Shown here: positions 9,626 through 39,500 of the stretch, piece after piece | Layout: every line of letters starts with the position of its first letter | Position numbering within the stretch: the stretch's first letter is position 1 | Position numbers and translations under genes: made by a program | NCBI GenBank assembly: GCA_002496385.1 | Contig: DAJR01000027.1 | Coordinates: 1,155 to 65,154 of the forward strand | Source of the DNA: Methanomassiliicoccales archaeon UBA147 | GTDB lineage: Archaea; Thermoplasmatota; Thermoplasmata; SG8-5 | DNA: 64,000 bases | Direction: 5' to 3' | Notes under the pieces: model-generated | The model's input: the letters and a program-made list of their open reading frames with translations, nothing else | Databases searched by the model: none | Told to the model about the DNA's origin: nothing

Positions 9626-10459
9626 CTAGAATCTCTGGAACACACCGCCCATCTCGACAAGGTTCTTGTCGGATGGCTGCGGATAGGCCAATGGCCCGAA
9701 TCCCTGGTCCGTGGCAATGCCGCACTCCGCAACCGTGAAACCCGGTTGCGAGCCTCCAAGGCTCGAAAGGTCTGTCTCGGACCTGAATGCCATTATCTCA
9801 TCGGCCATCACAGCCATGAAGGAACGGCTCATGGAATCGCTGACATCCCTGATTATCTTCACGACCATCGAGTCCATAATTGAATATGCCCTGGAGAGGG
9901 ATATGTCCCTGTCGAACTTGAGGAGCGCATCGTTGTCCAACGCTATTGTGCTGTCAGTGAGCAGCCTGAGTTTCTCGACATGCTCTTCGGCCATCTCTCT
10001 CCTCGAAGATTCCGCGCTGAATGGAAGGATGCAGACCGCGAAAGTGACCAACCCGAGGCCCTTCGCCATCTCGGCAACCATCGGGGCTACCCCGGTTCCG
10101 GTGCCGCCGCCGAATCCCGCGACAATGAACACGACATCCTTCGATATGAGGCATGAGCGGATGTCCTCCTGGGCAAGCTCCGCGCATCTCTGGGCCACCT
10201 CTATGTAACCTCCGGAATCATGGTTGAATGTGATGCTCTTTCCTATGCAGATCTTCCTGTCGGCGTCAACGAGCCTGAGGCCCGTCATGTCTGTGTTCAC
10301 GGCAATCCTGGGAACCCCCTTGAAATGCCCGCCCATCCGACCGACTGTCTGTATGCCAGCTCCACCGCAGCCGAGTATGACCATACGCGGCTCGCTCATA
10401 CAATCCGATATTATGTTGAGTATCTCGTTTTCCATCTTCACTTCCGACGCTAGGCTCAT
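9626..10459 (-). CDS. FtsZ/tubulin-superfamily GTPase, short form (N-terminal GTP-binding domain only)
   Basis: ILGCGGAG (T1), AVNTD and the tubulin signature GFGGGTGTG are present, along with LPFSAE and ALDNDALL. The protein ends about 60 aa after helix H7, so I see no T7 loop or C-terminal domain. An AGGAGGG Shine-Dalgarno-like sequence lies 8 nt upstream. Confidence 0.8.
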   Translation of the reverse strand: MSLASEVKMENEILNIISDCMSEPRMVILGCGGAGIQTVGRMGGHFKGVPRIAVNTDMTGLRLVDADRKICIGKSITFNHDSGGYIEVAQRCAELAQEDIRSCLISKDVVFIVAGFGGGTGTGVAPMVAEMAKGLGLVTFAVCILPFSAESSRREMAEEHVEKLRLLTDSTIALDNDALLKFDRDISLSRAYSIMDSMVVKIIRDVSDSMSRSFMAVMADEIMAFRSETDLSSLGGSQPGFTVAECGIATDQGFGPLAYPQPSDKNLVEMGGVFQRF

Positions 10460-12422: not shown

Positions 12423-12932
12423 ATGAGAGCTACGGTTGCGATAACTGTTCTGGCGATCTTCATGGTCATCGCCTCAATCGCATCGGCCAGCCCCGCCCTG
12501 AGCTCCCCCAAGGTCCTGCCAACCACAGGCACTTCGGGCGATGTTTTCACATTCACTGTTCATTACAAAGGGGATTCGCCGGTTTCCGTGACATTCTATG
12601 CCGACAATGCCCCTCTTGAGATGCAGGAAGTGGACCCCGGGGACCAGAATTACACCGATGGCAAGGACTATTTCATCCGTGTGAACCTGGAAGAAGGAAC
12701 AACCATTTATTATTTCAAGGCCACAACCGCCGCGGGCGAGGAAACGAGAACCGCCGCGACCACGATCAATGTCCAGCCTCCCGAAGGTTTGAGGGTCGAC
12801 CACATAGACGTCGTGCTGGCTGTCCTGATATTCCTCATTCCCACGGTGTGGGGTCTGGTCATGTTCCGGAGATTGTCAAAAGACCTTAGGGAGACAATGC
12901 AAATTCTGAAGGAGAGAAAAAAATCAGAATAG
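12423..12932 (+). CDS. Secreted, C-terminally membrane-anchored small protein (Ig-like ectodomain)
   Basis: Signal peptide MRATVAITVLAIFMVIASIASA. C-terminal TM VVLAVLIFLIPTVWGLVMF followed by a basic tail. Confidence 0.6.
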   Translation: MRATVAITVLAIFMVIASIASASPALSSPKVLPTTGTSGDVFTFTVHYKGDSPVSVTFYADNAPLEMQEVDPGDQNYTDGKDYFIRVNLEEGTTIYYFKATTAAGEETRTAATTINVQPPEGLRVDHIDVVLAVLIFLIPTVWGLVMFRRLSKDLRETMQILKERKKSE

Positions 12933-13843: not shown

Positions 13844-14998
13844 TCAGCTGATTTTTTCATCCTGGATTTCCAGCTTCATGTCCGCTCCGCAGGATGGGCA
13901 CTTCCCATCGTTCGCCGAGATGCAATCGGCATGCGCCACCCTTCCGCATTCGCACTTCACCGATGGCGAGGCCGGAGAAAGCGGTTTGCCGCAGTGCTGG
14001 CATAGTCCTTTCTTCCGTTGCGGGGATTCTTCCTTGACCGGTTCCCTGTCAAGCACTCCGAAGTACCTGAACATGACCAGCCAGAACACGGTTATCCAGG
14101 CCATGAATATCAATTCGCCGATGTTGTTGTGCGTCCACTGCATGGCCTCCGCGCCGTGATACCTGCCGACAATGATGATGATGGTCATCCTGAGGATGTT
14201 CGCGACCCAGGCAAGGAATATTCCGAGGGCCAGGAGGAGCGCTACCTTCCTGTCCGCCTTCTTATATTCCACGGCAACGAAGGCGATGAATGCCGACACG
14301 AATATCGCGACTGAGTAAAGACCGGTGCATGACAGCCCGATGCTCAGTGGGATCGGGAATCCATCGGGACCGGGGACCTCCATCATATTGTAAATCCGGA
14401 GGCCCGTCATCGGATCTGTGACCGGGGAGACCACGGCTATCCCGAGCAAGTTCGACAGGGCGGCGGTGGGCATGGCCAGTAAGTAGTAGATGAGCGGGGT
14501 GTTGGTGTCGGTCTCGCCTCCGCCCAGGCTCAGCAGGGTCGTCGGTATCACTAGGAAAACGAATAGAAGTATCACGAAAAGGAGGGCGAAGTCCCTCTCG
14601 ACGCGATATTTCGCGGGAATGTAATTGTAAGCGAGAAAGACCGCTGCCAGCACAAGTGCGACATAGTCATTGCTCCCGAGGTAGAATCCGTCCCTGAGGA
14701 ACAGGTTGAACGATGCCACCGCGACCAGCACCGCAATCCCCGCGGCCGGGATGAGCAATTTAAGGCGTCCTTCCAGCGTGACCAGGTTCACAAGGCGGGA
14801 GGCGATGTTGTCTTCCGCTGTTTTCTCTTTGGCAACGGCCTTTTCGCCTTTCGCAGCCCAGAGCAAAGCCCCGATGCCCGCGAGGATGAAAACAATCCCG
14901 ACCAGCCGGCTCATGTGGCTGAGCAATATCGCCAGGTTGAGCCCCCCGAAGAGAAGCACAAGACCGGCGACATACATTACCTTGTCAGCAGTTTTCAT
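13844..14998 (-). CDS. Archaeosortase-family transpeptidase (possibly ArtC-like) with an N-terminal TM extension and a C-terminal cytoplasmic zinc ribbon
   Basis: The protein is polytopic. It carries the conserved Cys/Arg/His triad contexts LSCTGLYS, ANILRMT and WTHNNIGE. The C-terminus is CQHCGKPL...CECGRVAHADC...CPSCG. Confidence 0.7.
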   Translation of the reverse strand: MKTADKVMYVAGLVLLFGGLNLAILLSHMSRLVGIVFILAGIGALLWAAKGEKAVAKEKTAEDNIASRLVNLVTLEGRLKLLIPAAGIAVLVAVASFNLFLRDGFYLGSNDYVALVLAAVFLAYNYIPAKYRVERDFALLFVILLFVFLVIPTTLLSLGGGETDTNTPLIYYLLAMPTAALSNLLGIAVVSPVTDPMTGLRIYNMMEVPGPDGFPIPLSIGLSCTGLYSVAIFVSAFIAFVAVEYKKADRKVALLLALGIFLAWVANILRMTIIIIVGRYHGAEAMQWTHNNIGELIFMAWITVFWLVMFRYFGVLDREPVKEESPQRKKGLCQHCGKPLSPASPSVKCECGRVAHADCISANDGKCPSCGADMKLEIQDEKIS

Positions 14999-23455: not shown

Positions 23456-23476
23456 ACAGGAGCCAAGAAACGGAAT

Positions 23477-23520
23477 GCCTGCGCCGGAAGGCGCAGGCCC
23501 TCTTTCCTTTATTTAATTTT
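23477..23520 (+). terminator. Hairpin plus T-rich terminator after the 985-aa gene
   Basis: gcctgcgcc-ggaa-ggcgcaggc (perfect 9-bp stem) followed by cctctttcctttatttaatttt. Confidence 0.65.
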
Positions 23521-23550
23521 AACAAATTTTAAATACTAACTTTAGAAAAT

Positions 23551-23558
23551 TTTATATA
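23551..23558 (+). promoter_or_regulatory. TATA-like box upstream of the giant gene
   Basis: gaaaattttatatac in an AT-rich spacer, about 115 nt upstream of ATG 23671. Confidence 0.3.
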
Positions 23559-23670
23559 CATCTTAGAGATATACGTTAGTCATCTATAAACAGTCAACAA
23601 AGCATCAATCGTATCGCCGGGCAGCATACAGTCTCTGGGCTAGTTGGCTGAGAGTGCAAAGGTGACAGAC

Positions 23671-24570
23671 ATGTCAAAGAAGGACCTTGAACGACAAGGC
23701 GATGGAGGAGGCGGGACAAAGCAGTGTCCGATATGCGGAGCCGAGAACGCTCCCGATGCATCAGAGTGCACGGGCTGCAGTTTCACGTTCGAAGCGGACG
23801 ATATCGTTGAGACGACCTCAGCGGCACCCGGTTCCGGCTCGACCGTTTGCAATGACTGCGGAGCGGAACTGCCCGCGGGAACAACCTCATGCTTCATTTG
23901 CGGGGCGGAAATAGGAACCCCTTCAACCGAAACAATCCCCGAGCCACCGGCCGAGGAAACGCCCCCGGAAGAAGAATGGGATGCGGGCGTTGTCGGCGGG
24001 GACGCTGAGCCGGCTCCGGAGGAAGTCACCGAAGAACCGGAAGAGATTCCCGAGCAACCGACGCCCGAATTGCCAGAGCTCGGAGAGAATGAGTTTCACT
24101 GTCCCTCATGCGGCAAGCCGATCGCCATGGGGACGTCCAAATGCCCGGAATGCTGGGCAGAGATACCCGAGATGATACGCTGCCCCAAATGCGACCATAC
24201 CATACCATTGAGTTCTGAGGTTTGCGCCGAGTGCTTCGCGAAGCTGAAGAACGGGGTTCTGATCGAAGAGCCGCCAGAGGAAATGCCCGAACCGGCAGAA
24301 TTGCCTGCGGAAGACCTGAACGGCGGCGAGCTGGAAGAGCACATCGACGAGGTTACCGAGATATATGGCGTTGAATGTCCGTTCTGCCATGAGATTGCCA
24401 ATCCAGGCGACGACATCTGCCCTGAGTGCGGAATGCCTCTCATCGAGCGCGAGGAACCGGCGGAAGAGGAACTCGCCCCCCGGAAGAAGCCGGAGAGGGA
24501 CTGGTACCGCATAATCGCCATCGGCGTGGTTGCAGTTCTGCTCGTTTCCGGTATACTGCCGTTCGCGATA
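23671..24570 (+). other. Predicted cytoplasmic head of the giant protein: five CxxC...CxxC zinc ribbons in acidic/proline-rich linkers, then a TM helix (24502-24570)
   Basis: The five ribbons are CPICGAEN..CTGC, CNDCGAEL..CFIC, CPSCGKPI..CPEC, CPKCDHTI..CAEC and CPFCHEIA..CPEC. The TM helix is WYRIIAIGVVAVLLVSGILPFAI. Confidence 0.75.
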
Positions 24571-27500
24571 CCGCTTCCCCATGTCGACAGGCTCCAGATT
24601 CGCATCGACGGCGCCTTCGGCGACTGGGACCAGGTATCAGGCCAGAACGATTCGGTACTCAGCACGCTCCCGGCCAATGTGGACATCGTGCAGAGCAAAA
24701 TGCTCTCTGACGCGTTCAATATCTATTTCTTTATGCAGGTGAGAGGCCAGGTTTTCGGAGACCAGGAAGGCGATACTGCCAGGATATTCATCGATACCGA
24801 CCAGGACCCCGCGACAGGCTACAGCATAATGGGCTTGGGAGCGGATTACCAGATACGCGTTTTCGGCCACGGCGGCGACGTCGAGAGCTCCTCATGCCTT
24901 GCATTTGACGATTCAAAGGCGCAGAATGATTTCAACGGCTTTGTTTCAGCATCGCCATCGGTACCTCATGCGCCCGAAGCGGTCCAGGATGCGGCCAAGT
25001 TCGAAGTGCGGGCTACGCTTGGGGACATCGGCATAACGCAAACCACCCCTGTGACCGCGGTGTTCTACATGGCGGATTCTCACGGCAACCGGGATTACTC
25101 GGACCTTCCGATTTCCAGCCTTGGCAGCGTCCTGTTTGTGAGGCAATCCAGCATCGCGCCCGCAAACGGCCTGATGACCGGCTCGGCCTCGCCGGCGATT
25201 TCGCTTGAGATTCATGCCATCGGGCAATCGGTTGACATAAACGGCATCACTGTGCCGAACTGCGCTCCGGGAACCTTTGTCAGGACGATGGCGAACGGCA
25301 CATCCCAGACCTTATCTCTGACAACCAGCGTCACCAGCCTGAGCGCCGGCTCACTGGTCGTGAGGGAAGCCGCCCCGGATGATTTCGATGTATCAGGTGC
25401 GCATGTGGTGGTCACCGGACAGGGCTCGTACTCGTATGCCGTGATGGCACCCGCTCTGATAGGCATTGACGGTGCATTCGCCGACTGGAACGGGAAAGGC
25501 ACGACCAACAGTGACAGGATTGACGACCAGCTTTCCAAGAACGGCATCGACTCGATTGACGATGCGGGACTGGACATGGTCAGCCAGACCACAGCGCGCG
25601 AGAACAATCAGCTAAACATCCTCGTGCAGACGAACGGCACGATGCTTGCTGGCATGTGGGTACCCGAGATAGAGGAAGCATATGTTGACACGGGCGCGAA
25701 CACAAGGTCGGAAGCGACCAAACCCGATTACACTTACACCGAGCCAGAGGTCTCCAAGACAAGGGCTCCGAACATCCAGAGGCCGACCGTGAAATCGGCC
25801 AAGACAGGCGAAGGCGCGGTGAACGTTTACCTGGACACGGACAACGACACCTCAACCGGATACTCTATCGAAGGAAGGGGCGCAGACTACCTGGTCAAGA
25901 TAAAGGGCCAGAATGGAAGGGTCACCGCCACAAGCATTTCCATATTCTCGGGCTCGGACCGGAATATGCCGAGCTGGACCCTCCAGGCCGGCCTTCCCCT
26001 GGGCGCGTCATCGGGCTCCGGTGTTGAGATCGGAATTCCCCTCGGGCTCTTCACGGGCATCACCCCGAACACAAGCGCGGTGATCCAGCTTGTCGACTGG
26101 AACCTCAACGGAGACGTCTCGGATATCTCAATGTGGGATGTTTTCGAGACCGGTACCAGGGCGGGAACCAGGGCGGACCCGGGTCTCCCCGGCTACGGCC
26201 ACCTTATGGGAACTCTCCTGACCTCCGGAAATGAATTCGTGCCAGGGGCAACCTTGGTACTTAAGGATTTAACTGGACGTGCCACCACCCGAATAACTGT
26301 CGAGAACACAATCGATAGCTATTCTATTGCCCAGGAAGTCTCGAAGGGGCTTCAGGTGAACATGTATGCAGTCAACAATACGCTCTACGGTGCAAACTCA
26401 ACGACATTGACCAACGACAAGACTTTGGCCAAATGTAATATCATGATGGGCAACCCCATACCGGCCGCAGCACCGACCGGGTTGGAGGCGAAGGTCTTTG
26501 GCGCTATTGGTGTGCGTCTCACATGGACGACAGGGGCCACTCCCACTTCTTTTAATATCTTCAAGACAACCAACACCACGACCTCTGCCGGCGATGTGAT
26601 GGGCAGGTATTACGGCATAAGCAGGTTGACCGGCATCTCCGGAACTGCCACGGAGTTCATAGACACCAACGTGGCCAATAACACGGTTTACTATTATTTC
26701 ATAGAATCGGTCACAGGCGCTCAGGTGCATTATTCCCAGGAGGTCAGCGTCACAGTAAATTACTCCGCCGTTCCAGTCATCACTCATCAACCGATCGCCG
26801 ATTGCACCGCATCCGTGGTGACTGTCAAAGCGACCGTCACGGATGATTCAGGTATTAAATTTGCCTCCGTGTTCTACAGGAAGGGCTCTTCCGGCGCCTG
26901 GACATCCGCGCCGATGACCCTGAGTTCGGGCTCTCCCTCAAACGGGAATTGGGTGGCAGGCATCCCCGTCGAGATGACGGACATCAACCAGCTCTATCAG
27001 TATTACCTGACGGCCGATGACGGCTCGAACCTCGGCATGTTCGGCGGGTCCGGCGCACCCGGATACCCGACGCCTTTCGGTTACAATGCCTCGTATGCAC
27101 CCAGCAACCCATTCCCAGTGTACGGTTATGTTTACCTGTATGACGGTACCTTTGCGGGCGGATTCGCACCTGTCCCGCAGCCCGGAGCGACCGTGACAGT
27201 GAGCTGGTACGACTTCTCAATGGCGGCGGTGAACACGACCTCGGATGTCACGAACGCCCTCGGGCAGTTCAGCATCGACCTCCACAACGGCGGGGTCGGC
27301 GACCCTCTGGGATACGGGATCGAGATAAGCTCGACCGCATCGACCGGCAATACAGGATACAACTGGACCGCCATAACCGACTGGAACATGACGGGCGGCA
27401 TCTGGATGAACGTGCTCTGCGGTGTCCCATACGATGTGATAATTACGAATCCTCTGGCTCTGCCAGTGCCCGCAGTCTCTGCCAACGTGCCATTCCCTGT

Positions 27501-30500
27501 GACCTACCGGATAGTTGACATCAATGGCGTGCTAGCGCCCGGATACTTCACCTTCGCTGACGGTCCGATGAACTGGCACAGCGGCGACCCGCTCTTCGTT
27601 TCCCCGCCCGATGTGTATTTCGACGGAACATCATCCACAACCCCGGGCACCTGGACAGGCAACCTGTTGTTGCAGACCCTGGGCGCTACCTACATCAACG
27701 TCACCGAGAACCACCTGTCCGATTTCTACCTGACGCCCTTCGACGCGATAGCCTACCAGATAGGCGGCGTTGCGACGCCCGGATACCTGAAGGACTGGGC
27801 CAATCTGACGCTAACGGTAGTGGGTCAATCGGTGTTCAATCTCACGAAGTGGGCACCGGCATTCGCGAACCCCGGAGAAATATTCTCGTACTGGCTGAAC
27901 TACTCCAACGAAGGCACCCAGTGGATGTATAACGTGAGCATCTCCGAATCATATCCCCCGGGCGTGACATTCATCAGTTCCATCCCGCCGCCGACAATAG
28001 GCACGGATTACTGGTTCATCGGGACCATAGCCCCGGGCGGCTCCAACTCCATACAGATATTCGTGTCAGTGAACATGAATGCGACCGGGACACTTACAAA
28101 CACAGCCAGCATAACCGCTCCATCAATAACAACTGTATGGGCTTTCGCAAATACGACTGTTATTAATCCGTTGATGACTGTGAAGAAATCCGCGCCTGCC
28201 ACCGCAAATGCTGGCGAGACGATGATGTACACTATCCGATACTGGAACAACGGCACCGACTGGGCGCAGAATGTCTGGATATACGAGGATTACCCGATGA
28301 ATGTCAATGTCCTGAACGCGACACCCATGCCGACGGCCTGGCCGGGGACATGGTACATAGGCGACCTAGCCCCAGGAGCAACCGGAACTATATTCGTCAA
28401 TGTCACGGTGAATGCCGGATTCAGCGGAACGCTGTACAACGAGGTTCTCCTGACATATGAGAACGATGTGGTTTCCATGCCCGATGCCCGCGCCTGGGCC
28501 AACACAACGGTGAACAATCCCCTGTTAAATGTCGATAAAACCGCCCCGGCGACCGCCAACTCCGGCGCCCAGATTGTCTATGCGATTCACATATGGAACT
28601 CCGGGACCGCCACAGCATTTGATGTTGTTGTGACCGACACGCTGCCGGCCGGGACAACATATGTCCCTGTCGCAACGCCTCCACCCTCCTCCGTGGTCGG
28701 CCAGACCCTTACATGGACCCTCCCTCCCATCGCGCCCGGGGCATCTGTGTGGATATACGTCACAGTCCAGGTCAGCGAAACCGCGACCGGAACAATCTCG
28801 AACACAGTCAGCGTGGTTTACGAGGACGCCGCAGGCCAGGAACTCGGCCCGGTAACTGACACTGCAACATTCGCAATAGCTGACCCGTTGCTCACGATTC
28901 AGAAGGTCGGACCGGCCTACGCCAACTCCGGCCAGACCATAACATACACGATATGGGTGAACAACACTGGCAGCGCACCCGCATACAACATTACAGTTAC
29001 GGAAACATACCCCGCGGACGCGACGTTCGTCAGTTCCAACCCGCCGCCCAGCTTCGGCAACAATGTCTGGAACATCTCGTTCCTGGCTGCGCACGGCGGC
29101 ACCCAGATCTCTGTCACCGTGCTGATAAGCGCCACCCCGGGCACCGTATGGCAAAACAACACTGTCATCGCCGATTACGAGGACGGCAGCAACGAGGACC
29201 AGGCGGACGTTACGGATGTCGTCACGACCATCCTGAACAATCCGCAGCTCACTCTTGCCAAGACCGCTCCGGAATTCGCCAACCCGGACCAGGACATCAC
29301 ATACACCGTCACGGTCACAAATATCGGAAGCGAGCCGGCTTACAATGTCATTGTCACCGAGAGTTATCCGGCAGGCGTGTCTTTCGTCAGCGCCAACCCG
29401 GCCCCGACCACCCCGATCAATGTTTGGAACCTCGGAAGCATCCCTGTGGGCGGAAGCATAACGATCGTCATAACCGTACACATCAACGCGGGAACCACTG
29501 GCCTGCTGACCAACACCGTGGCAGCTGATTACGAGAGCAGCAGCGGTCAGGATTACCATGTTACCGCCTACGACACCACGATGGTGACATGGCCCGTGAT
29601 GAACATCTGGAAAGATGGACCGGCAAATTCCACTGCCGGCAGCACGATAATGTACACGATTCACTACCAGAACCTTGGCTCCGACACAGCTTACAATGTG
29701 ACGATAACAGAAACCTATCCGGCCGATACCACATTCCTCAATGCCAACCCGACGCCCACAGTCGGTAACAACGTATGGGTCATCCCGTCTGTCGCCCCCG
29801 GCACTGGCGGAGTGATATTCGTCAATGTGACCATCAGCTCCACGGCCACAGGAATGCTCGTGAACAGCATCAGCGCCATCTACAAAAACACGGACAACCA
29901 GACAATGCCGGAAATCACCAATGAGACCTACACGTTCCTCACCGGCCCCTGGATGAACCTTGAAAAGACAGGGCCGGCGACCGCGAATACCGGCGAGACA
30001 GTAATCTATACTTTGCATTACTGGAACTCGGGCGATGATACAGCATACAACGTGAACATCACAGAAATTTACCCGATAGAGGTTACCTTCGTGAGCGCGA
30101 ACCCGCCTCCGACATACGGCAACAACATATGGCTCATCCCGACCGTGGCACCGGGCGTCCATGGTTGGATAAACATCACGGTGACGATCAATGACGGCGT
30201 GACCGGCACAGTAACCAACTATGTGAACCTGAACTACCGGAACGACGCAGATGTTCAGCTCCCGGTCGAAACGGGGAACTGGACCATAATCATTCTCGAC
30301 CCGCTGATGATTATTGAGAAAGTGGGTCCGAGCGAGGCGAACCCCGGACAGGTAATAATGTATACTATTACTTATCAAAACATAGGCCTCGGAGCCGCGT
30401 ACAACGTCGTCATCACAGATACGCTGGATCCGGGCGTTTCCTATGTTTCATCATCCCCGGCCGGAGCATTGGCCGGTCAGGTCTTGACCTGGAACATCGG

Positions 30501-33500
30501 GACACTCGTTTCGGGTCAGGGCGGAACCATATTCATCAACGTCACTGTGACCGCCACCAATGGCACTATAATAAACACTGTCTCGGTAGATTATGACGAT
30601 GCGGCGGACGAGGACCAGGACGATGTCGAGGACACCGTGGTAACGACCCTCATCAACCCGTTCCTTATCGTGGAAAAGGAAGGCCCGGCCACCGCTGTCC
30701 CCGGCCAGACCATCACATACTGGATTAACGGAACGAACATCGGAAATGACTGGGCGTATGACATCTGGGTGAACGACACTCTGCCTGCCGGCCTGACATT
30801 CCTGGGGTCCATCCCTGCGTTCAACACATCTTTTGGGTCAACATACTCGTGGTTCATCGGATATCTGGCCCCCGGAGGAAAATTCTCAATTCAGATAACC
30901 GCGCAGGTGACCGCAACATCCGGCGAGATAGTCAACTTCGCCAACATAACCTTCAAGAATGATGCGGACATTGTCCAGCCAGTCATTGAAATTCAGACCT
31001 CTCCCATGGCCATTGTCGACTGCCTTATATTGATAACAAAGACCGCTCCGGAAACTGCCAACACCGGCGAGTTCATCACATACACGATCGCCTACATCAA
31101 TGTGGGCCTGAGCACCGCCTACAACGTGGTCATCACGGACACTCTTCCGATAGACGTTACATATTATTCATCTATACCTTCGGGCACGGTCATCGGCCAG
31201 GTCATAGCATGGAACATCGGGACGCTTGCGCCATATGCCAGCGGTTCCATACAAGTGACAGTCCAAGTGAATGAAGGTCTTCCCATAGATACCGAACTCA
31301 TCAACAATGTGGTAGTGACCTACGAGAACGGCGGGAACATAGTCAACCAAACATCCGATTTTAACATAACAACGGTCATCGACCCCCTTGTTGAGATTAC
31401 CAAATGGGCTCCGCCGACCGGGGCACCCGGCGGGATATTGACCTACCTGGTCAACTACACAAACAGCGGAAACGACACAGCCTACAATGTGGTTATCACC
31501 GAAACATATCCGACAGGGGTCACATTCCTCGACGCCAACCCGATGCCGAACAATCCTCCGACAAACACAGTTTGGAACCTCGGGAACCTGGCTCCGGGAG
31601 CATCAGGCACGATATTCATTAATGTTACCATATCCACCACGGCCGGCGGCACCCTTGTGAACACTGTTCAGATCATTTGCGAGAACGATGCAGATGTTGA
31701 ATTCACTGACCAGGACACTGTCAACACCCCTATCGTGGGTCCCTATGTCCAGATTGTGAAGACCGGTCCGGCCAATGCCGCGCCCGGAGACACGATTTCC
31801 TACACGATAACTTATTCCAACACCGGCCCCGGGATAGCCTATAATGTCCGGGTGTACGATACTTTACCTGCCGGCGTCGCCTTTGTCAATGCCATTGCAT
31901 CCGGTATATTGCAAACCGCGGGACCGCCGACATGGGTCTGGTGGTTCGGGAACCTTGCCCCGGGCGCTTCCGGAACGATCGTGATAACCGTGACCGTGAA
32001 CGCCGATGCGACCCTGCTTATCAACAACGCATCCGTCGAATACTACACAGACCCGGGATTCGTCAATAAAATCATCAACAATTGCACATTCACCACGGTG
32101 GTAAACTCCCCGCTGCTCACGATTGAGAAGACAGCCAATGCGACAGCCTGCACAGGCCAGATAATCACTTATGAGATTACAGTCACAAACACGGGCAGCA
32201 ATGTCGCCAACAATGTCATAGTCACCGAAAACTATCCTGACGGCGTCACCTATCTGATTGCAGTGCCGTTGCCCACCTCCGGCAACAATGTCTGGAACCT
32301 CTCACAAATAAAAGGCATTTCGATGCCGGTCGGAGCTGTTTGGACCATCACTGTCACCCTGCGTGTCAATGCGACCGCCATAGGCGTCCTGCACAATGCT
32401 GTAAATGTGCGTTACTGGAACCAGGCCAACGCTGTCATGCCCGTAGTCTGGGCATACGCTGACACTACCATAGTGAACCCGCTTCTGACTATTGATAAGA
32501 CAGCGCCTGCCGAAGCCAATACCGGTGAGCTGATCACATACACGCTGACTGTGACCAACGTCGGAACCGCTCCGGCATTCAACATCTGGGTGAATGAGTC
32601 CTACCCGCCGGGTGTCACATACGTCAGTTCCAACATACTGCCCATCAACTTCGGCGGGGACAACGACTCATGGTACATCCCGTCCCTGGCGGTTGGTGCC
32701 CCGTTCACCATCACAATCACCGTTCGGGTCGATGCCCTCACCGGCACCCTCACGAACTGGGCATTCGTCAATTACACCAATTTCGCAGATATGCCCTTGA
32801 CCGAGGTGGACGATTTCGCCATCACCACAATAGTCAATCCTATAATGGGGATAACCAAATGGGCGCCCGCGACGGCCAACCCGGGCCAGACATTCACATA
32901 TTGGATCAACTACACAAATACAGGCGATGGCTGGGCTTACAATGTGGTCATCACCGAGACATACCCGGCCGGAGTATCGTTCGTATCGTCAACACCGGAT
33001 CCGTCATCCGGGAACAATGTTTGGAACTTCGGGCCGCTCGCTTCGGGCGCAACCGGCTCCATCCAAATTACCGTTCAGGTGCTCGCCGGAACCGTGGGGT
33101 GGGTACTCAATAACTCGGCCAGGCTCGACTTCCAGAACCAGGCGGGAATCCCCCAACTGACTATCAGCGCATGGGCCGTCACGAATGTGGTCCAGCCCGC
33201 CATGACAGTCATCAAGACCGGCCCGGCCACCGCCACACAGGGCCAGACCATCCTGTACACCATATTCTACCAGAATACTGGGAACGACATAGCTTACAAT
33301 GTCATTATCACAGATGCAGTCCCGCTGGGCGTCTCCTTTGTCAATTCCACACCCAACCCGACCTCGCCCGGTGTATGGGTAATCGGCAACCTGGCACCCG
33401 GTGCTTCAGGTTACATCTACATCACCGCCACTATCGGCGCCGCGACCACCGGAATTATCACGAACTGGGCGTATGTGAATTATAAGAACCGCATCATTCC

Positions 33501-36500
33501 TCTTGACCAGGTGGGAGATTCAGCCCTGACAACCATCATCGTCCCGCGGATGACGATCACCAAGACCGCACCGGATTATGCCAACACCGGCGAAACCATC
33601 ACTTACACGATATCCTACCAGAACCTCGCGGCTGTCGCTGCTTACAATGTGGTGATAACCGACACGCTGCCGGTCGGCGTGACCTATGTGTCTTCGACCC
33701 CGCCCGGTTCGGCAGCCGGCCAAACCGTCACCTGGAACGTCGGGATTCTCGGGCCGGGAGCGTCCGGGACAATCACGGTCAATGTCATAGTTACAGCAAC
33801 CGACGGGACCCTGACAAACACTGTCCGGGCAAGTTACAGAAATCAATATAGCGTCGTTTATCCCGTTGTCTGGGACACCGACTCCACCATCATCATCAAC
33901 CCGATAATCACAGTCGAGAAATCCGCCCCGGCAACTGCCAATACCGGCCAGAACATCGAGTACGTTATCTGGGTGAACAACACCGGAACTGACATAGCTT
34001 ACAATGTCACAATCACGGAAACGTATCCTGTTGGGGTCATATTCGTGTTCGCCTTCCCTGTGCCAACTTCCAGCAACAATGTTTGGAACCTTGGCAACCT
34101 GGCCCCGGGCACGGCCACCCCAATATTCATCACTGTGACTGTCAATGCGACCGGCCTGCTGGTGAACTCTGCAGAGGCCAGATTCAACAATTATGTGGGA
34201 ATCCCCCAGACACCGGTCACAGACACAGCCAGCACGCTTGTCGGAGACCCGCTGATGTTCATTCAGAAGACCGCTCCGCTCAACGCGAATCCCGGCCAGA
34301 CCATCATGTACACGATACGCTACTGGAACAACGGTACTGCGCCGGCCTACAATGTGATAATCACTGAAACGTACCCTGCAGGAGTCACATTCCTGAACGC
34401 CAACCCGATGCCCGGTAACCCGCCGACAAACACTGTCTGGACCATCCCGACGGTTCCCTCACATGGCAGCGGTGTTATTTTCATAAACGTCACGATCAGC
34501 GCGACTGCAACCGGGTTCATTGAAAACAATGTGCTGCTGGCATACACGGACGCGGCGAACAACCCGAAGCCGTCAGTGACAGACCAGGCTATAACTGTCC
34601 TTACCGGCCCGTATGTGCTGCTCACCAAGACCGGCCCGGGTTACGCGAATCCCGGCCAGATCATAATGTACACGGTTACATACCGGAACATCGGAACCGA
34701 TACAGCCTATAATGTCTGGATAAACGAAACCTACCCGGCATTCGTTACCTTCCTGAATGCCACCCCCGCACCGACAACAGGCAACAATGCCTGGAACCTC
34801 GGGAACCTTGCCCCGGGCGCATTCGGCACAATATTCATCAACGTGACTGTGGCAGCCACAGCTACCGGAACGATTCACAACAATGTCACAGCAGTCTTCC
34901 GGAACTCTGTCGGCGAGCAGTTCAGCAGCGATGCCACCTGGCCCACGATCATTCTTGAGCCTGTAATGCAAATCGTGAAGACAGGGCCCGCGGGAGCCAA
35001 CCCCGGAGCGACCATTACATATTGGATAAACTACACGAATACCGGCTCTGACTGGGCATATGACGTGACAATCACCGAAACCTACCCGACAGGCGTCACC
35101 TATTACACAGCCATTCCCCTGCCCACGACCGGCAACAATGTCTGGAACGTCGGAAGTCTCGCCCCCGGAGCCAGCGGCTCGATCCAGATAACCGTGACCA
35201 TAGGTTTGGCTGTGACAGGAAGTATAACCAACACCGTCAGAGTCGATTACGATAACCAGGCCGGAAGAGCCATGGTCCCTGTGACTGCCACATTCGTCAC
35301 TCTCATAGTCAACCCCCTGTTGTCTCTTGAAAAGACAGCATGGACGGTGCTGCCGGGCACAGTCTTCCCCAACGAGATTTTCACCTACCAGATAATCTAC
35401 ACGAACATCGGCGGCGGATGGGCCTACGATGTGAGGATAACGGAATCATTCCCAACAGGCGTGACATTCCTTGACGCAACCCCGCCGCCCACCTTCGGCA
35501 ACCAATGGCTGGTCGGTCCCCTGGCTCCGGGAGCCAGCGGCTCAATTTTGATCACGGTAAGGGTCAACTCCGGAGCTACCGGAACGCTACTGAACAACAT
35601 CACCGCGAATTACGAGAACTCTCTCGGAGAGATGCCGCCGGTGTATGCCGAACTCGCCCTGCAGGTAATTGCTCCCAGACTCCAGATAACAAAGACCGCG
35701 CCGGCGACGGCAAATACCGGCCAGGATATCGTCTACCGGATATGGGTCAACAATACCGGCAATGCATGGGCGACGGACATAATCCTCACCGAGACATACC
35801 CGGCATCCGTCACATTCATCGAAGCAGTGCCCGTGCCTACCGTGCAAAACACGGTATGGTACGTTCCTGACCTTGGGCCTGGCGGTTCCTGGTTCGTCGA
35901 AATCACCGTCCGGGTGAATCTGGACGCTTACGGTACTTTGCTGAACAGTGTCGCCGTGACGTTCCGGGATATGGCCGACCAATCCTATGGGCCGGTCCTT
36001 GCGCAGGCGATGACCCTCATCCAGGACCCCATGGTCACAATCTCCAAGACTGGACCGGCCACTGCCAACCCCGGCCAGGTGATCATGTACACGATAACCT
36101 ATGAGAACATCGGTACCGCGCCCGCCAATGTCATTATCACTGAAACCTACCCGGCAAGCGTAACATTCCTGAATGCCACCCCGATGCCCGGCAACCCTGA
36201 AAACACAATCTGGAACATCGGCAGCGTAGCCCCGAGCACCGGAGGAACCATTTTCATAAATGTAACGGTGAGTGTGACTGCTTCCGGGACACTGACCAAC
36301 ATCGTTGTGCTCGATTATTCGAGCGCAACCAGGGACTTCAAGTCGAAACAGGCAGTGTGGAACACGACCATTGTCGAGCCGGACATGACCCTGTCGAAGA
36401 CCGCGCCGGCGCAGGCCAACTCGGGTCAGACAATAACCTACTGGCTCAATTATTTCAATGAGGGCACCGATTGGGCTTACAATGTGACAGTCACCGAGAC

Positions 36501-39500
36501 ATACCCAGACGGGGTGACATTCCTGTCCGCGACTCCCGCACCCACGACAATTCCGAACTTCTGGTCAATCGGCAACGTGGCTCCTAACACAGGCGGCTCG
36601 ATCCAGATAACCGTTAGGGTGAACGCCACCGCTTTCGGAACACTGACGAATTATGCCATTCTCAATTACAGGAGCGGAGGAAGGATCATGCCATACGTCG
36701 AGGCCACCGCCCAAACTAAGGTCATGGACCCGATTCTCATCATAACAAAGGATGCCCCGACCGATGCAAACCAGGGCGAGACCATCACCTACACGATTAC
36801 CGTCCGGAACATCGGCTCGGACTTCGCCTACAATGTATGGGTGTTCGAGAACTACCCGGGCACGATATTCGAATCATCTATTCCGGCTCCAGCGTTCCCG
36901 TCCAACGATGTCTGGTACTTCGATTCCATAGCCAATGGTTCATTCGTTGTGATAACCATTACTGTAACTGTCCCGTTATCTGCTTCGGGCTATCTGGACA
37001 ATGCCGCTTACGTGGATTACTTCGACCTTGCCGGAGAGTCCCAGGACAGGGAATGGGCATACGCGTCCACCTATGTCACGGGACCGTCCCTGACAGTGGA
37101 CAAATGGGCCACGCCCTATGCCAATGCAGGGGATTATCTCACATACTGGATCAACATCACCAACACCGGGACCGGCTGGGCATACAATGTGATTGTCACG
37201 GAAACATACCCCGCTGGAATCACTTTCGTCTCCGCGATACCCGCGCCCAACCCGGGGAACACGACCTGGAACTTAGGCTCGATAGCACCGAACCACACGG
37301 TGAAGATTCAGATCACTGTGCAGGTGAATATCGGCACGGTCGGGATACTGGTGAACCGCGCGGATGTCGATTACGAGAACCAGATCGGCGTGGATTATAC
37401 CCCGGTATGGGACATTGCCGTCACCACTCTGGGTGAAATTCCGAACGTCATCATCCAGAAGACCGCACCGCAGTATGCGAATGCTGGCCAGACGATTAAT
37501 TACACCATATTTTACCATAACGCAGCCACGATTTGGGCAAACAATACATGGATAAACGAGACATATCCGTTCGGCGTCACCTATGTCCCGGTCGCCAACC
37601 CTGCCCCGTCAGTCGGCAACAACTGCTGGTTCATCGATGACCTGGCGCCCGGCCAATCCGGCTACATATTCATCAGTGTGACAGTGACCGGGGCTGTGTA
37701 TGGCACTCTCACGAACATGGCCAATATCGTATATTGGAACGGGAACCTCACAAGAAAATTCGAGAATTACGCCAGCGCCAACACCATTGTGAGGGACGCG
37801 CTCATGCAGGTTGACAAATCCGCGCCGGATACAGTGGCAATCAACCAGCAGTTCTTATACACGATCACATACACAAACATCGGAAACGATACCGCCTATG
37901 ATGTGTGGGTTGTGGATACCCTGCCGGGCGGCGTGAGCTTTGTCACATCTTCGATACCGCCGGATGCCAGCAGCGTTCCGCCGGTGTACCGCTGGCACTT
38001 TGCCTCAATCGCGCCCGGTGCTTCCGCCGGCATCACCATCACCGTCCAGGCCAATGTCGCCGGGGTGCAGGTGAACACAGTCACAATTGACTATGACAAC
38101 ACCCAGGGCGTTGCGCGTCCGCAGGTATCTGATTCCGCGACCACCGTCATCACAGGCCTAGCCACACCCTATGTCACAATTCAAAAATTCGCACCGGCCC
38201 AGGCTGTCACAGGCCAGGTAATCACCTATCTGATTACTTATCAAAACGTCGGGGACGGGATTGCCAACAATGTGGTGGTAACCGATACCCTGCCCCTTGG
38301 CGTGACATTCCTCAATGCCACACCGGCAGAAGATTCCATTGCAGGGCAACTGGTGACCTGGAACAACCTCGCTCCGATTGGCCCGGGCGTTTCCGGGACC
38401 ATCTTCGTGAATGTGACTGTCAACGCCCTCTCCGGCACATTGGCCAACCAGGCTAATGTAGTTTGGACCGGCGGCTCGAACGTCGCCTACGCCTACACAA
38501 CAATAGTCTCGCCTCTTATGCAAGTCACCAAAACAGTGAACGAGACAATGGCACAGAATGGCGAAACCCTCCACTACACGATAACCTACACCAATGTGGG
38601 AAGCGCCCCTGCCTACGACGTGACAATCGTGGACACGCTTCCGCCGGGTTCCTCCTACCTGGGCGCAACACCGCCATGGGACACCAGCGCCCCCCCGATG
38701 TACACATGGGTAATCCCGATCGTGCCGGCCGGGAGCAGCGGAACAATATTCCTCGATGCCCAGGTCAATGTTGTTTCTGGCACACTCACAAACAACGTCT
38801 CGCTGAACTATGACAATGCCATCGGGACTGCACAGCAGCCGGTTTACGCCGAGGCTACAACAGAGGTCACAGCGGTGGAACTGATATTGACCAAAACCAC
38901 GAGTTCCCTGGTTGCGGAACCTGGAACAGATATAACCTACTTCATCACTATTTTCAATGCCGGGCCGACTCCATTTACCTTTGCCAACGATGTCACCCTA
39001 AACGATTTCTACCCTGCCGGCACAATGTTTGTGACAGCTCAGTTAAAAATAAACAACGGCGGGTGGAATCCCGCACCGGCAAATGTATCCGTGGCAGGCC
39101 TTGACACATGGTACCTTTCCTCATGGCTCGGACCCATGCCGGCCTTCGACACTTGGACATTGCAGCTGATCGTGCACATTGACTGGATGGCCCCGGATGT
39201 GCTCGAGAACCGCGCGATGGTGAATTACACAGAATCCGGATTCGTGCACTTCCTCAATGCCACCGCCGTGACCACGATCAGCGGCCCCCTGATGGACATA
39301 ACCAAGACCTCCTCGATGAAATACGTCTCTCCGGGCCAGGAATTCATCTACACGATAAATTATGTGAACAACGGGCCTGGCCCGGCGCTGAACGTCACCA
39401 TAAGGGAATTCTACCCTGCCGGCCTGACCTTCCTGTCATCAATACCCGCCCCGAGCGAGGGGAACAATGTATGGCACCTCGGAACGATTGGCGGATTGAA

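What the first reader, a model, noticed from the sequence alone, without database searches (positions are those of the whole stretch)
23671..24570. An array of five zinc ribbons as the cytoplasmic head of a surface giant
Five CxxC-(10-13 aa)-CxxC units are separated by acidic and proline-rich linkers such as PEPPAEETPPEEEWD and EEPEEIPEQPTPELPEL. They precede the only N-terminal TM helix. The archaeosortase encoded upstream also ends in a cytoplasmic CxxC...CxC...C...CxxC module. Zinc ribbons on the cytoplasmic side of both a sorting enzyme and its presumptive substrate suggest either a shared cytoplasmic partner or mutual recognition. This is inference only.
Basis: partly seen in the sequence, partly recalled or inferred. 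Interest (0 to 1): 0.6.

Follow-up and report, generated by a model that had tools for sequence, protein, structure and literature searches.

The report
Zinc-ribbon cytoplasmic head of archaeal giant
The five zinc ribbons are a real, conserved, inward-facing N-terminal head of a 6,295-residue archaeal surface protein, but they are one variant of a head found across a large uncharacterised protein family and are not a device specific to the sorting enzyme.

Summary
Window 23671-24570 encodes five CxxC-x10-CxxC zinc ribbons on acidic, proline-rich linkers, followed by one membrane helix. This is the true N-terminus of a 6,295-aa DUF11 protein with a PEF-type C-terminal sorting signal. It matches Pfam DZR at 60 bits against a cut-off of 27. 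All 20 head cysteines lie in ribbons. Only the ATG at 23671 has a ribosome-binding site.

Orthologous giants across one order of Thermoplasmata keep the ribbon cysteines, a [DE]W[DE]xG[VI]VGG motif, the start and synteny with an ArtC-like archaeosortase.

- The sortase tail is a C4HC3 RING-like finger, not a ribbon.
- PEF-tailed paralogues in the same genome have no ribbons.
- A related genus pairs ribbon-headed giants with tail-less sortases.
- The same ribbon cassette sits on two unrelated membrane proteins here.

The giant belongs to a family of at least 737 representatives built as variable cytoplasmic head, anchor helix, conserved ectodomain and usually a PEF tail. Ribbons occur only on the cytoplasmic side: 169 before the helix against 0 after it.

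Most likely the head is a multivalent cytoplasmic docking platform. Its partner is unknown; a cytoskeletal partner is suggested only by analogy with CdpC-FtsZ1. The parts are known and the arrangement is undescribed. Interest is moderate.

The parts
23477..23498 (+). Terminator-like hairpin plus T-tract that closes the upstream 985-aa gene. It makes the giant gene a separate transcription unit.
   Evidence: 9-bp stem, 8 GC pairs, followed by CCTCTTTCCT; sequence
23510..23670 (+). AT-rich promoter and leader. It holds TATA-like boxes TTTAAATA (23528-23535) and TTTATATA (23551-23558) and the Shine-Dalgarno GGTGA (23661-23665), 5 nt before the ATG.
   Evidence: Sequence; GC 0.36-0.38; SD check. 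The promoter assignment is an inference from the archaeal TATA consensus.
23671..42558 (+). Giant gene of 6,295 aa. Order of parts: cytoplasmic head, signal-anchor TM, two 'IDGxFxDW' ectodomains, about 40 DUF11 repeats, PEF-type C-terminal sorting signal.
23725..23778 (+). Zinc ribbon 1 (aa 19-36, CPICGAENAPDASECTGC).
   Evidence: its Cys are nearly invariant in the orthologue alignment; AF2 pLDDT about 84
23848..23901 (+). Zinc ribbon 2 (aa 60-77, CNDCGAELPAGTTSCFIC).
   Evidence: Zn_Ribbon_1 at aa 60-80; C60, C63, C74, C77 invariant
23974..24000 (+). Conserved short motif [DE]W[DE]xG[VI]VGG (EWDAGVVGG, aa 102-110) inside a disordered acidic linker. It is a candidate partner-binding linear motif.
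   Evidence: W103 and G106 invariant; pLDDT below 50. The same motif is in the paralogous cassette of C43:6801-9917.
24100..24234 (+). Double zinc ribbon (ribbons 3 and 4, aa 144-188). This is the best-conserved and most widespread part of the head.
   Evidence: DZR aa 144-188, positions 1-44 of 45; eight Cys and W162 invariant; pLDDT about 90; this part alone matches in 112 of 151 genomes of the class
24376..24429 (+). Zinc ribbon 5 (aa 236-253, CPFCHEIANPGDDICPEC), followed by the invariant GM..E.
   Evidence: (Zn_ribbon_3 at aa 234-257; DZR_2 at aa 231-263)
24505..24570 (+). Signal-anchor transmembrane helix (aa 279-300). It is flanked by RKKPER on the N-side and by the conserved LPxV[DE]R on the outer side.
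   Evidence: hydropathy 2.69; helix 278-299, pLDDT 90-95; conserved
24604..25530 (+). First conserved 'IDGxFxDW...DTDxDxxTGY...GADY' ectodomain. It defines the wider protein family.
   Evidence: 737 representatives at E<=1e-3; no Pfam family matched
42454..42558 (+). PEF-type C-terminal sorting signal (IPEF, hydrophobic helix, RRRRKRED).
   Evidence: (TIGR03024 aligned 1-25 of 25, 18.6 bits, below the cut-off of 23)
13844..14998 (-). ArtC-like archaeosortase (384 aa), the presumptive processing enzyme of the giant.
   Evidence: TIGR04178 59.9 bits against cut-off 23; ArtC model 56.4 against 100; synteny
13889..14002 (-). C4HC3 RING-like finger at the cytoplasmic C-terminus of the archaeosortase (aa 333-370).

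Best explanation
The stretch encodes the genuine cytoplasmic N-terminal domain of a double-anchored giant surface protein of an uncultured Thermoplasmata archaeon. Relatives are labelled Methanomassiliicoccales or Thermoplasmata MAGs.

The head consists of five C4 zinc ribbons. Ribbons 3 and 4 form a canonical double zinc ribbon. The ribbons are strung like beads on disordered, strongly acidic, proline-rich linkers (net charge -52). The linkers carry one conserved short motif, [DE]W[DE]xG[VI]VGG.

The head is made first and stays in the cytoplasm. The following helix acts as a signal anchor. About 6,000 residues of ectodomain are then threaded out. The PEF-type C-terminal signal is presumably cut and lipid-modified by the syntenic ArtC-like sortase, while the N-terminal helix and head remain in place.

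The head is one lineage-specific version of the exchangeable cytoplasmic heads of a large family. Those heads combine ribbons, Asn-Gly repeats, HhH and TPR modules.

Inferred function: a multivalent protein-docking platform that ties the surface giant to a cytoplasmic partner. That partner would be shared with the other membrane proteins carrying the same ribbon cassette. The partner is unknown. The best precedent is the zinc ribbon of haloarchaeal CdpC, which binds FtsZ1.

Shown here: the anatomy, conservation, sidedness and distribution. Inferred: zinc binding, retention after export, and docking.
For: Real and translated. Six giants of 5,099-6,295 aa share the head at 45-98% identity. They carry 4-6 ribbons, all Cys of ribbons 2-5 are invariant, and they share the same start.

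Distribution: the full head is found in giants of 2,099-6,792 aa across the same order. Only the DZR part matches outside the order. The block sortase...PRPP synthase, 981-aa gene, 985-aa gene, giant is conserved in two genomes of the genus and two genomes from other families of the order.

Structure: AF2 gives ribbons pLDDT 82-91, the TM helix 90-95 and linkers below 50.

Family context: the ectodomain next to the TM helix defines 737 representatives. Among 129 complete ones:
- 106 have heads of 60 aa or more, and 57 have at least one ribbon.
- There are 169 ribbons in 34,936 head residues against 0 in 161,989 residues after the TM helix.

In this genome, proteins with a cleavable signal peptide carry their ribbons after the last TM helix instead (C52, C39, C63). 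That places ribbons on the cytoplasmic side in both topologies.

The cassette is shared with C43:6801-9917 (TM helices plus a ChlI-type AAA+ domain, same W motif; E=1.1e-14) and with C14:11095-15105 (E=1.9e-21).

The acidic character (pI 4.05) favours protein binding over nucleic-acid binding.

Precedent: the CdpC zinc ribbon binds FtsZ1 through a ribbon, long disordered linker, ribbon layout. Its distant multi-ribbon relatives occur in all classes of Thermoplasmatota (bioRxiv 10.64898/2026.07.16.738847).
Against: No partner was identified, and no expression or proteomic data exist: no RNA runs were found. Metal binding is untested.

Structural matches to solved proteins are weak (no Foldseek hit at E<=1e-3) and say nothing about ligands.

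The heads of the family are so variable that any single function is uncertain. Two PEF paralogues have no ribbons and 33 long heads have neither ribbons nor NG repeats.

Cleavage of the anchor helix after export cannot be excluded. That would separate the head from the giant.

The FtsZ-like gene in the window is syntenic only within the genus.
Confidence: 0.6

Rival explanations
1. One reading: the ribbons of the giant and the Zn module of the archaeosortase recognise each other. In a weaker form, both bind one dedicated partner, such as the neighbouring Ras-like GTPase, so that the enzyme finds its substrate from the cytoplasmic side.
For: - Both modules are predicted to be cytoplasmic.
- The sortase and giant genes stay within 8-16 kb of each other in four genomes from three families of the order.
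- Every assessable genome with the composite head has a sortase with a Cys-rich tail.
- The GTPase gene adjoins the sortase gene in the genus and lies about 4 kb away in G021.
- The weakest Foldseek hits include RanBP2-type fingers bound to Ran, but these are generic ribbon matches.
Against: - The tail is a C4HC3 RING-like finger, not a ribbon. Its hhalign similarity to the head is limited to CxxCG knuckles.
- PEF paralogues C56 and C10 in the same genome lack ribbons, yet only one ArtC-like sortase is present. The second family member, on C11, has no tail.
- PEF tails are equally frequent with and without ribbons.
- G012 and G024 have tail-less sortases, each the only match in its genome, together with ribbon-headed giants; the G024 giant has a PEF tail.
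- Tailed sortases occur in five further families without the composite head.
- The GTPase is absent from the G053 locus.
Confidence: 0.1
2. The head is a passive retention and topology device with no specific partner. Fast-folding zinc beads and a polyanionic chain keep the N-terminus inside the cell and fix the N-in orientation of the anchor helix. They also hinder extraction of a single helix that holds a 6,000-residue adhesin. This is conceptually like the N-terminal retention modules of bacterial giant RTX adhesins.
For: - Heads of the family vary enormously in length and content, which fits a generic physical role.
- Ribbons never occur beyond the helix.
- The linkers are disordered and highly charged.
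- Ribbon number drifts between 4 and 7 among orthologues.
Against: - Each ribbon has its own position-specific invariant residues beyond the Cys: P145, G154 and W162 in ribbon 3, and I249, G254, M255 and E259 around ribbon 5.
- The W103/G106 motif is invariant inside an otherwise free-drifting linker.
- The same ordered cassette is kept on two unrelated membrane proteins.
- Some family members manage with heads shorter than 20 aa.
These points indicate specific recognition surfaces.
Confidence: 0.15
3. The head is a latent regulator. It is released by intramembrane or juxtamembrane proteolysis after a surface event and then acts on nucleic acid or transcription, in the manner of anti-sigma or Notch-type signalling.
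For: - Paralogous heads carry HhH and TPR modules.
- One PEF paralogue (C14:18251-27865) lies next to a KaiC-like ATPase and a wHTH-like gene.
- Zinc ribbons often bind nucleic acids (general knowledge).
Against: - This head has net charge -52 and pI 4.05, and no basic surface patch is evident.
- It contains no HhH, wHTH or other DNA-binding domain.
- No site-2 or rhomboid protease gene was seen in the conserved neighbourhood.
Confidence: 0.07
4. The ribbons are not part of the protein. True initiation lies near the TM helix, for example at Met255, and the upstream frame is open by chance or is a decayed separate gene.
For: A Met at aa 255 would give a conventional-looking signal sequence. No transcript or proteome data are available.
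Against: - Only ATG 23671 has a Shine-Dalgarno site.
- Met255 lies inside ribbon 5.
- The frame, the start and all ribbon Cys are conserved down to 32-45% identity.
- Linker indels among orthologues leave the frame open, and the polymorphism at 23817-23819 is a 3-nt deletion.
- Independent gene calls in public records start at the same MSKK.
- Cys density is about 30-fold that of the rest of the protein.
Confidence: 0.02

Closest known systems
Pfam DZR (PF12773) and Zn_Ribbon_1/Zn_ribbon_3 (PF13240, PF13248) zinc-ribbon modules, which often sit at the N-terminus of prokaryotic membrane proteins
   Same: The CPxCG-type C4 knuckle pairs are the same, and scores are above the curated cut-offs. 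The position just before a TM helix is the same. The function of such modules is generally unknown (own knowledge of Pfam architectures).
   Different: Here there are five ribbons in a fixed order with a conserved W-x2-G motif and long acidic disordered linkers. They are attached to a 6,000-residue ectodomain with a sortase signal. The cassette is conserved as a unit across an order and recurs on two other proteins.
PEF-CTERM proteins and archaeosortase C (TIGR03024 and TIGR03762; Haft et al. 2012, as cited in PMC5244752)
   Same: The C-terminal PEF motif, hydrophobic helix and basic cluster are the same. A syntenic exosortase/archaeosortase-family enzyme has ArtC as its best model, and JGI names close homologues 'archaeosortase C (PEF-CTERM variant)'.
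   Different: Both curated models score below their cut-offs (18.6 against 23; 56 against 100). The N-terminus is a long cytoplasmic head plus signal anchor instead of a cleavable signal peptide. The enzyme carries a RING-like tail. None of this appears in the papers found.
CdpC of Haloferax volcanii (bioRxiv 10.64898/2026.07.16.738847)
   Same: Zinc ribbons are separated by a long disordered linker and held at the membrane's inner face. In CdpC a ribbon is the protein-binding surface, for FtsZ1. Distant multi-ribbon relatives are reported in Thermoplasmatota.
   Different: CdpC is a 346-aa peripheral protein attached by an amphipathic helix and has no ectodomain. Homology to the giant's head was not tested. 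No FtsZ link is shown here.
N-terminal retention modules of bacterial giant RTX adhesins (LapA, MpIBP); from own knowledge, not tested here
   Same: A folded N-terminal module stays on the inner side of the export route and anchors a huge repetitive adhesin-like protein.
   Different: These have a different export system (T1SS and outer membrane), a different fold and no membrane helix. There is no homology.
Zinc-binding anti-sigma factors (ZAS, zf-HC2: cytoplasmic zinc finger, TM helix, extracellular domain); from own knowledge
   Same: A bitopic layout with a cytoplasmic zinc module that binds a cytoplasmic protein.
   Different: The H-x3-C-x2-C signature is absent. Archaea have no sigma factors. 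There was no Pfam zf-HC2 hit.

Membership tests
Pfam DZR / zinc ribbon (PF12773, PF18912, PF13240, PF13248) | Profile score above the curated gathering cut-off | tested here: met
   DZR 60.1 bits (cut-off 27.3), DZR_2 46.9 (27), Zn_Ribbon_1 44.5 (25), Zn_ribbon_3 44.1 (27)
Pfam DZR / zinc ribbon | Two CxxC knuckles per ribbon, conserved in relatives | tested here: met
   Five C-x2-C-x10-C-x2-C units. Sixteen Cys are invariant and four nearly invariant across 11 orthologues.
Pfam DZR / zinc ribbon | Binds one Zn(II) per ribbon | not testable with these tools
   Needs metal analysis of recombinant protein
PEF-CTERM sorting-signal proteins (TIGR03024) | C-terminal PEF motif, hydrophobic helix and basic cluster at the extreme C-terminus | tested here: met
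   ...EIPEFATILVPLIGLMVLVAFLERRRRKREDAAVI. Orthologues end in the same way.
PEF-CTERM sorting-signal proteins (TIGR03024) | Profile score above the curated cut-off (23 bits) | tested here: not met
   18.6 bits, E=0.0017, aligned to model positions 1-25 of 25. This is a divergent PEF-type signal.
PEF-CTERM sorting-signal proteins (TIGR03024) | Cleavable N-terminal signal peptide, as in typical sortase substrates | tested here: not met
   A 278-aa head precedes the first hydrophobic helix. Cleavage after the helix could not be tested.
Archaeosortase C (TIGR03762), for the upstream enzyme | Score above the equivalog cut-off (100 bits) | tested here: not met
   56.4 bits. It does meet the family signature TIGR04178 (59.9 against 23) and Pfam Exosortase_EpsH (33 against 25.7).
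RING/PHD-type cross-brace finger, for the sortase tail | Eight ligands in C4HC3 order with RING-like spacing | tested here: met
   C-x2-C-x10-12-C-x-C-x4-H-x2-C-x4-7-C-x2-C in 43 of 74 homologues, with all ligands invariant
RING/PHD-type cross-brace finger, for the sortase tail | Significant profile match to known RING domains | tested here: inconclusive
   The PDB profile search finds the AMFR RING at E=7e-4, then PEP5, synoviolin and RCHY1. Pfam zf-RING_2/5, C1_1 and Prok-RING_1 all score below their cut-offs.
CdpC-like FtsZ membrane anchors | Zinc ribbons joined by long disordered linkers at the inner membrane face | tested here: met
   AF2 model: confident ribbons, linkers with pLDDT below 50, and a TM helix. 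This shows architecture only.
CdpC-like FtsZ membrane anchors | Sequence homology to CdpC, and direct FtsZ binding | not tested
Binding needs an experiment.
ZAS anti-sigma factors (zf-HC2) | H-x3-C-x2-C zinc motif | tested here: not met
   The motif is absent from the head and there is no Pfam hit.

The most novel reading that the evidence does not exclude
The cytoplasmic zinc modules are address labels. They comprise the ribbon cassette on the giant and on two other membrane proteins, and the RING-like finger on the sortase. In this reading they dock these proteins onto an FtsZ-type, or other filamentous, cytoplasmic scaffold. Insertion, lipid anchoring and positioning of the surface coat would then be coupled across the membrane to the cytoskeleton. 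This would be an integrin-like or LINC-like link in an archaeon. It would extend two haloarchaeal observations to a whole class of double-anchored surface proteins: ArtA and its substrate act at midcell (PMC7157517), and a zinc ribbon (CdpC) binds FtsZ1.
Probability: 0.12. Interest if true: 0.8.

Novelty: new variant of a known kind. Interest (0 to 1): 0.45.

Why it matters
Archaeal surface biogenesis is understood almost only from Haloferax ArtA and its PGF-CTERM substrates. Here a large, uncharacterised family of predicted PEF-type sortase substrates keeps an N-terminal membrane anchor and a modular cytoplasmic head. This giant carries the most elaborate and best-conserved ribbon version of that head.

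If the head docks on a cytoplasmic partner, these proteins physically connect the outside of the cell with its interior. That would be relevant to how these archaea position, hold or sense their surface coat. It would also give a concrete role to the many orphan CPxCG zinc-ribbon arrays of archaea.

The invariant W-x2-G motif and the double ribbon are small, defined targets for binding screens. The negative result also matters: ribbons are not the sortase's recognition handle.

Tried and rejected
- RNA evidence for the start site: no RNA runs hold the stretch. Only DNA runs from a hydrocarbon metagenome and a 2025 study do. Laying the 2025 contigs gave too few differences for a dN/dS test, only an in-frame 3-nt deletion.
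- Solved-structure relatives of the double ribbon: nothing significant by sequence or by fold. The best hits were PolD DP2 fingers and NZF/RanBP2 fingers, at E>=0.02.
- Rfam search on both strands of 23300-24700: no match. The minus-strand ORFs inside the head are shadows of a GC-rich coding frame.
- Pfam gave no family for the 'IDGxFxDW' ectodomain.
- The tail-versus-head profile comparison gave 75% probability, but it aligned only CxxCG knuckles across two different ribbons. I rejected it as evidence of a common fold.
- Nucleic-acid binding was considered and set aside because of the charge of -52.
- The FtsZ-like gene at 9626-10459 was considered as a conserved neighbour. It is syntenic only within the genus.
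- Literature searches for this architecture found no description.
Full report
**What is there.** The window is C35:1155-65154 of a 2.0-Mb, 66-contig assembly with 54% GC. Relatives of the gene are labelled Thermoplasmata or Methanomassiliicoccales MAGs. The DNA occurs in a hydrocarbon metagenome.

One ORF runs from 23644 to 42558. From the ATG at 23671 it encodes 6,295 aa. The first 300 aa contain five C-x2-C-x10-C-x2-C units at aa 19-36, 60-77, 144-161, 171-188 and 236-253. A hydrophobic helix at aa 279-300 follows.

Pfam places the units in DZR (60.1 bits against 27.3; the best stretch, aa 144-188, covers the whole model), DZR_2, Zn_Ribbon_1 and Zn_ribbon_3.

All 20 Cys of the head lie in ribbons, while the other 5,995 residues hold 13 Cys. 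Shuffles of the head that keep its Cys gave two or more ribbons in only 10 of 20,000 trials. The only correction is that every spacer is 10 aa.

**Is the head translated?**
- The upstream gene ends at 23455 and is followed by a hairpin plus T-tract at 23477-23498.
- Then comes a stretch of 36-38% GC with TTTAAATA and TTTATATA boxes.
- GGTGA lies 5 nt before ATG 23671. No internal in-frame ATG, GTG or TTG has such a site, and Met255 lies inside ribbon 5.
- Six giants of 5,099-6,295 aa share the head at 98, 64, 62, 55, 45 and 49% identity. Five of the six start with the same MSKK/MSND...GGGG...CP.CG (one after a 9-residue extension), and they carry 4, 5 or 6 ribbons.
- In an 11-sequence alignment, all Cys of ribbons 2-5, W103, G106, W162, parts of ribbon 5 and the TM helix are invariant. 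The linkers drift in length and sequence.
- A related population has an in-frame 3-nt deletion in a linker.
- No RNA data exist.
I put a downstream start at about 2%.

**Structure.** AlphaFold2 with the orthologue alignment gives pLDDT 82-91 for the ribbons (about 90 for the double ribbon) and 90-95 for the helix at 278-299. It gives below 50 for residues 1-14, 43-55, 84-130, 210-230 and 261-270. This is a beads-on-a-string model. The conserved EWDAGVVGG lies in a disordered stretch and looks like a short linear motif.

The cytoplasmic part has 67 Asp+Glu against 15 Lys+Arg, giving pI 4.05. No solved structure is significantly similar.

**The rest of the protein and the enzyme.** After the helix come two copies of an 'IDGxFxDW...DTDxDxxTGY...GADY' domain with no Pfam family. 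DUF11 repeats follow. The protein ends in ...IPEF, a hydrophobic helix and RRRRKRED. This aligns end to end with TIGR03024 (PEF-CTERM) but scores 18.6 bits against a cut-off of 23.

The upstream gene at 13844-14998 (minus strand) is an exosortase/archaeosortase family protein (TIGR04178 59.9 against 23). Its best specific model is ArtC (56 against 100). JGI names close homologues 'archaeosortase C (PEF-CTERM variant)'.

The order sortase, epimerase, PRPP synthase, 981-aa gene, 985-aa gene, giant is kept in two genomes of the genus. Without the epimerase in one case, it is also kept in two genomes from other families of the order. This supports an enzyme-substrate pair.

**The wider family.** A search with aa 272-620 (helix plus first ectodomain) against 1.84 billion representatives found 737 proteins at E<=1e-3 and 457 at E<=1e-10.

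Nearly all of the best 150 have the same plan: a head of variable length, one TM helix, the IDGxFxDW domain, variable repeats and usually xPEFxx, helix, RRKR.

Among 129 complete ones:
- Head length has a median of 198 aa and reaches 1,061 aa.
- 106 heads are 60 aa or longer.
- 57 have at least one ribbon, 30 at least three and 16 at least five.
- 50 carry three or more [TVIM]NG[LRMK] repeats.
- 169 ribbon motifs lie in 34,936 head residues, and none lies in 161,989 residues after the helix.

In the window's own genome, five proteins have PEF-type ends, and all five have long heads before a single helix and the same ectodomain. The heads differ:
- The giant has five ribbons.
- C38:37210-44100 has HhH, at least eight ribbons, TPR and NG repeats.
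- C14:18251-27865 has TPR, HhH, one ribbon and TNGLGR repeats.
- C56:6379-12516 and C10:6699-11165 have only TNGLGR repeats.

Proteins with a cleavable signal peptide carry their ribbons after the last helix instead (C52, C39, C63). Ribbons are thus consistently on the cytoplasmic side.

**The head is a specific cassette.** The order of parts is: ribbon(s), [DE]W[DE]xG[VI]VGG, G-x-N-[EQ]-[FY]-x-CPxC double ribbon, then ribbon 5 with ICxECGM. This order is kept in all orthologues.

In a survey of 151 genomes of the class, end-to-end matches occur only in the same order, in ORFs of 2,099-6,792 aa (G104, G008, G089, G043, G132, G021, G125, G053, G063, G111, G081). Elsewhere only the double ribbon (aa 138-217) matches, in 112 of the 151 genomes.

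The cassette recurs in two other proteins of this genome:
- C43:6801-9917 (1,038 aa) has the same W motif, then coiled coil, four TM helices and a ChlI/Mg-chelatase-type AAA+ domain. The match is E=1.1e-14.
- C14:11095-15105 (1,336 aa) has many ribbons and matches aa 52-263 of the head at 43% identity, E=1.9e-21.
Both have orthologues in relatives.

The sortase tail is conserved as C-x2-C-x10-12-C-x-C-x4-H-x2-C-x4-7-C-x2-C in 43 of 74 homologues. That is a C4HC3 ligand set.

A profile of the tail finds the RING fingers of AMFR/gp78 (E=7e-4), PEP5, synoviolin/HRD1 and RCHY1. Pfam gives sub-threshold C1_1, zf-RING_5, zf-RING_2 and Prok-RING_1. It is therefore a RING-like cross-brace finger and not a DZR ribbon. 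Its hhalign match to the head (75%) only lines up CxxCG knuckles.

The tail follows the last helix, after the conserved WTHNN. By the accepted exosortase topology it should be cytoplasmic. This is an inference.

Against mutual recognition:
- Ribbon-free PEF paralogues coexist with a single ArtC-like sortase. The other family member, on C11, has no tail.
- PEF tails are equally common with and without ribbons, 36/57 against 47/72.
- In G012 and G024 the only sortase is tail-less, yet giants there have 6-9 ribbons including the double ribbon; the G024 giant also shows the same helix, ectodomain and a PEF tail.
- Tailed sortases occur in families f14, f17, f22, f25 and f29, where the composite head is absent.

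A common partner for the tail and the head is not excluded, but nothing here requires one.

**Mechanism.** Shown here: a conserved, Cys4-ribbon, highly acidic, largely disordered head on the cytoplasmic side of a signal anchor. It is a cassette shared by three membrane proteins and is embedded in a family with exchangeable heads.

Inferred: the head is retained in the cytoplasm, while the ectodomain is exported and its C-terminus is processed by the sortase. The ribbons and the W motif are protein-binding surfaces. The position-specific invariants argue for binding surfaces and against a mere plug.

The only experimentally characterised analogue I found is CdpC of Haloferax volcanii. It has two zinc ribbons joined by a 243-aa disordered linker. 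One ribbon region holds the membrane and the other binds FtsZ1. Distant multi-ribbon relatives are reported in all classes of Thermoplasmatota. In the same organism, ArtA and its S-layer substrate act at midcell. This makes a cytoskeletal or positioning partner the most attractive candidate, but it is analogy only.

**Novelty.** The domains (DZR, DUF11, PEF-type signal) are known. The papers I could search do not describe several features:
- a long cytoplasmic head with a signal anchor on predicted sortase substrates;
- the ordered five-ribbon cassette with its W motif;
- the reuse of that cassette on other membrane proteins.

Earlier notes of this scan describe the same family in other genomes. 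I confirmed the family independently.

I rate this a new variant of a known kind and of moderate interest.

Noticed in passing
window 13889-14002 (minus strand): The archaeosortase ends in a conserved C4HC3 finger. Its profile matches best the RING domains of the membrane E3 ligases AMFR/gp78 and synoviolin/HRD1. A polytopic membrane enzyme with a cytoplasmic RING-like tail is the same layout as those ligases.
   Followed up: partly
genome contigs C14:18251-27865, C38:37210-44100, C56:6379-12516, C10:6699-11165: Four further PEF-tailed paralogues carry tandem Asn-Gly repeats just under the membrane helix: up to about 25 units of TNGLGR, or [VIM]NG units in C38. The giant of the window lacks them. 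Such repeats occur in 50 of 129 family representatives.
   Followed up: partly
genome contig C14:9454-15105: Three consecutive genes encode membrane proteins with zinc ribbons (150 aa, 388 aa and 1,336 aa, the last with many ribbons). They lie downstream of a 742-aa gene and about 3 kb from another PEF-tailed protein. That protein is itself flanked by a KaiC/RecA-like ATPase gene and a possible wHTH gene (C14:27995-29607).
   Followed up: no
genome contig C43:6801-11001: The ribbon cassette with the W motif heads a 1,038-aa protein with coiled coil, four TM helices and a ChlI/Mg-chelatase-type AAA+ domain. A second, stand-alone ChlI-like ATPase gene (359 aa) follows directly. Orthologues of about 1,020-1,060 aa exist across the order.
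   Followed up: partly
genome contigs C31:83563-95190, C21:65801-71818, C51:9374-13627; C11:14233-15075: A second kind of C-terminal signal (a small Ser/Gly/Thr-rich motif such as SSGW or TSGG, a hydrophobic helix with a Cys, then RRRK) ends three large proteins of 1,417-3,875 aa. The genome has a second, tail-less archaeosortase-family gene (280 aa) that could serve them.
   Followed up: no
window 12423-12932 (+): A 169-aa protein with a signal peptide, a small beta-rich ectodomain, a TM helix and a basic tail has no family match. It stays next to the sortase gene in four genomes from three families of the order.
   Followed up: partly
window 9626-10459 (minus strand): A 277-aa FtsZ/tubulin-like protein covers only the GTPase domain (TIGR00065 159 bits against a cut-off of 295; model positions 16-205 of 353). 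It is syntenic in the two genus relatives examined and is not seen near the sortase in other families.
   Followed up: partly
window 22115-22816 and 27109-27810: The secreted 985-aa protein and the giant share a colinear module (PFPVYGYVYLYDGTFAGG...PGYLKDWANLT). It is visible when the translations are compared.
   Followed up: no
window 23690-23831: Contigs from four 2025 DNA runs differ from the window at eight clustered positions and by a 3-nt deletion at 23817-23819. All of these lie in the N-terminal tail, in ribbon 1 outside its Cys codons, or in the linker between ribbons 1 and 2. The rest of the head was identical apart from one further change at 24351.
   Followed up: partly
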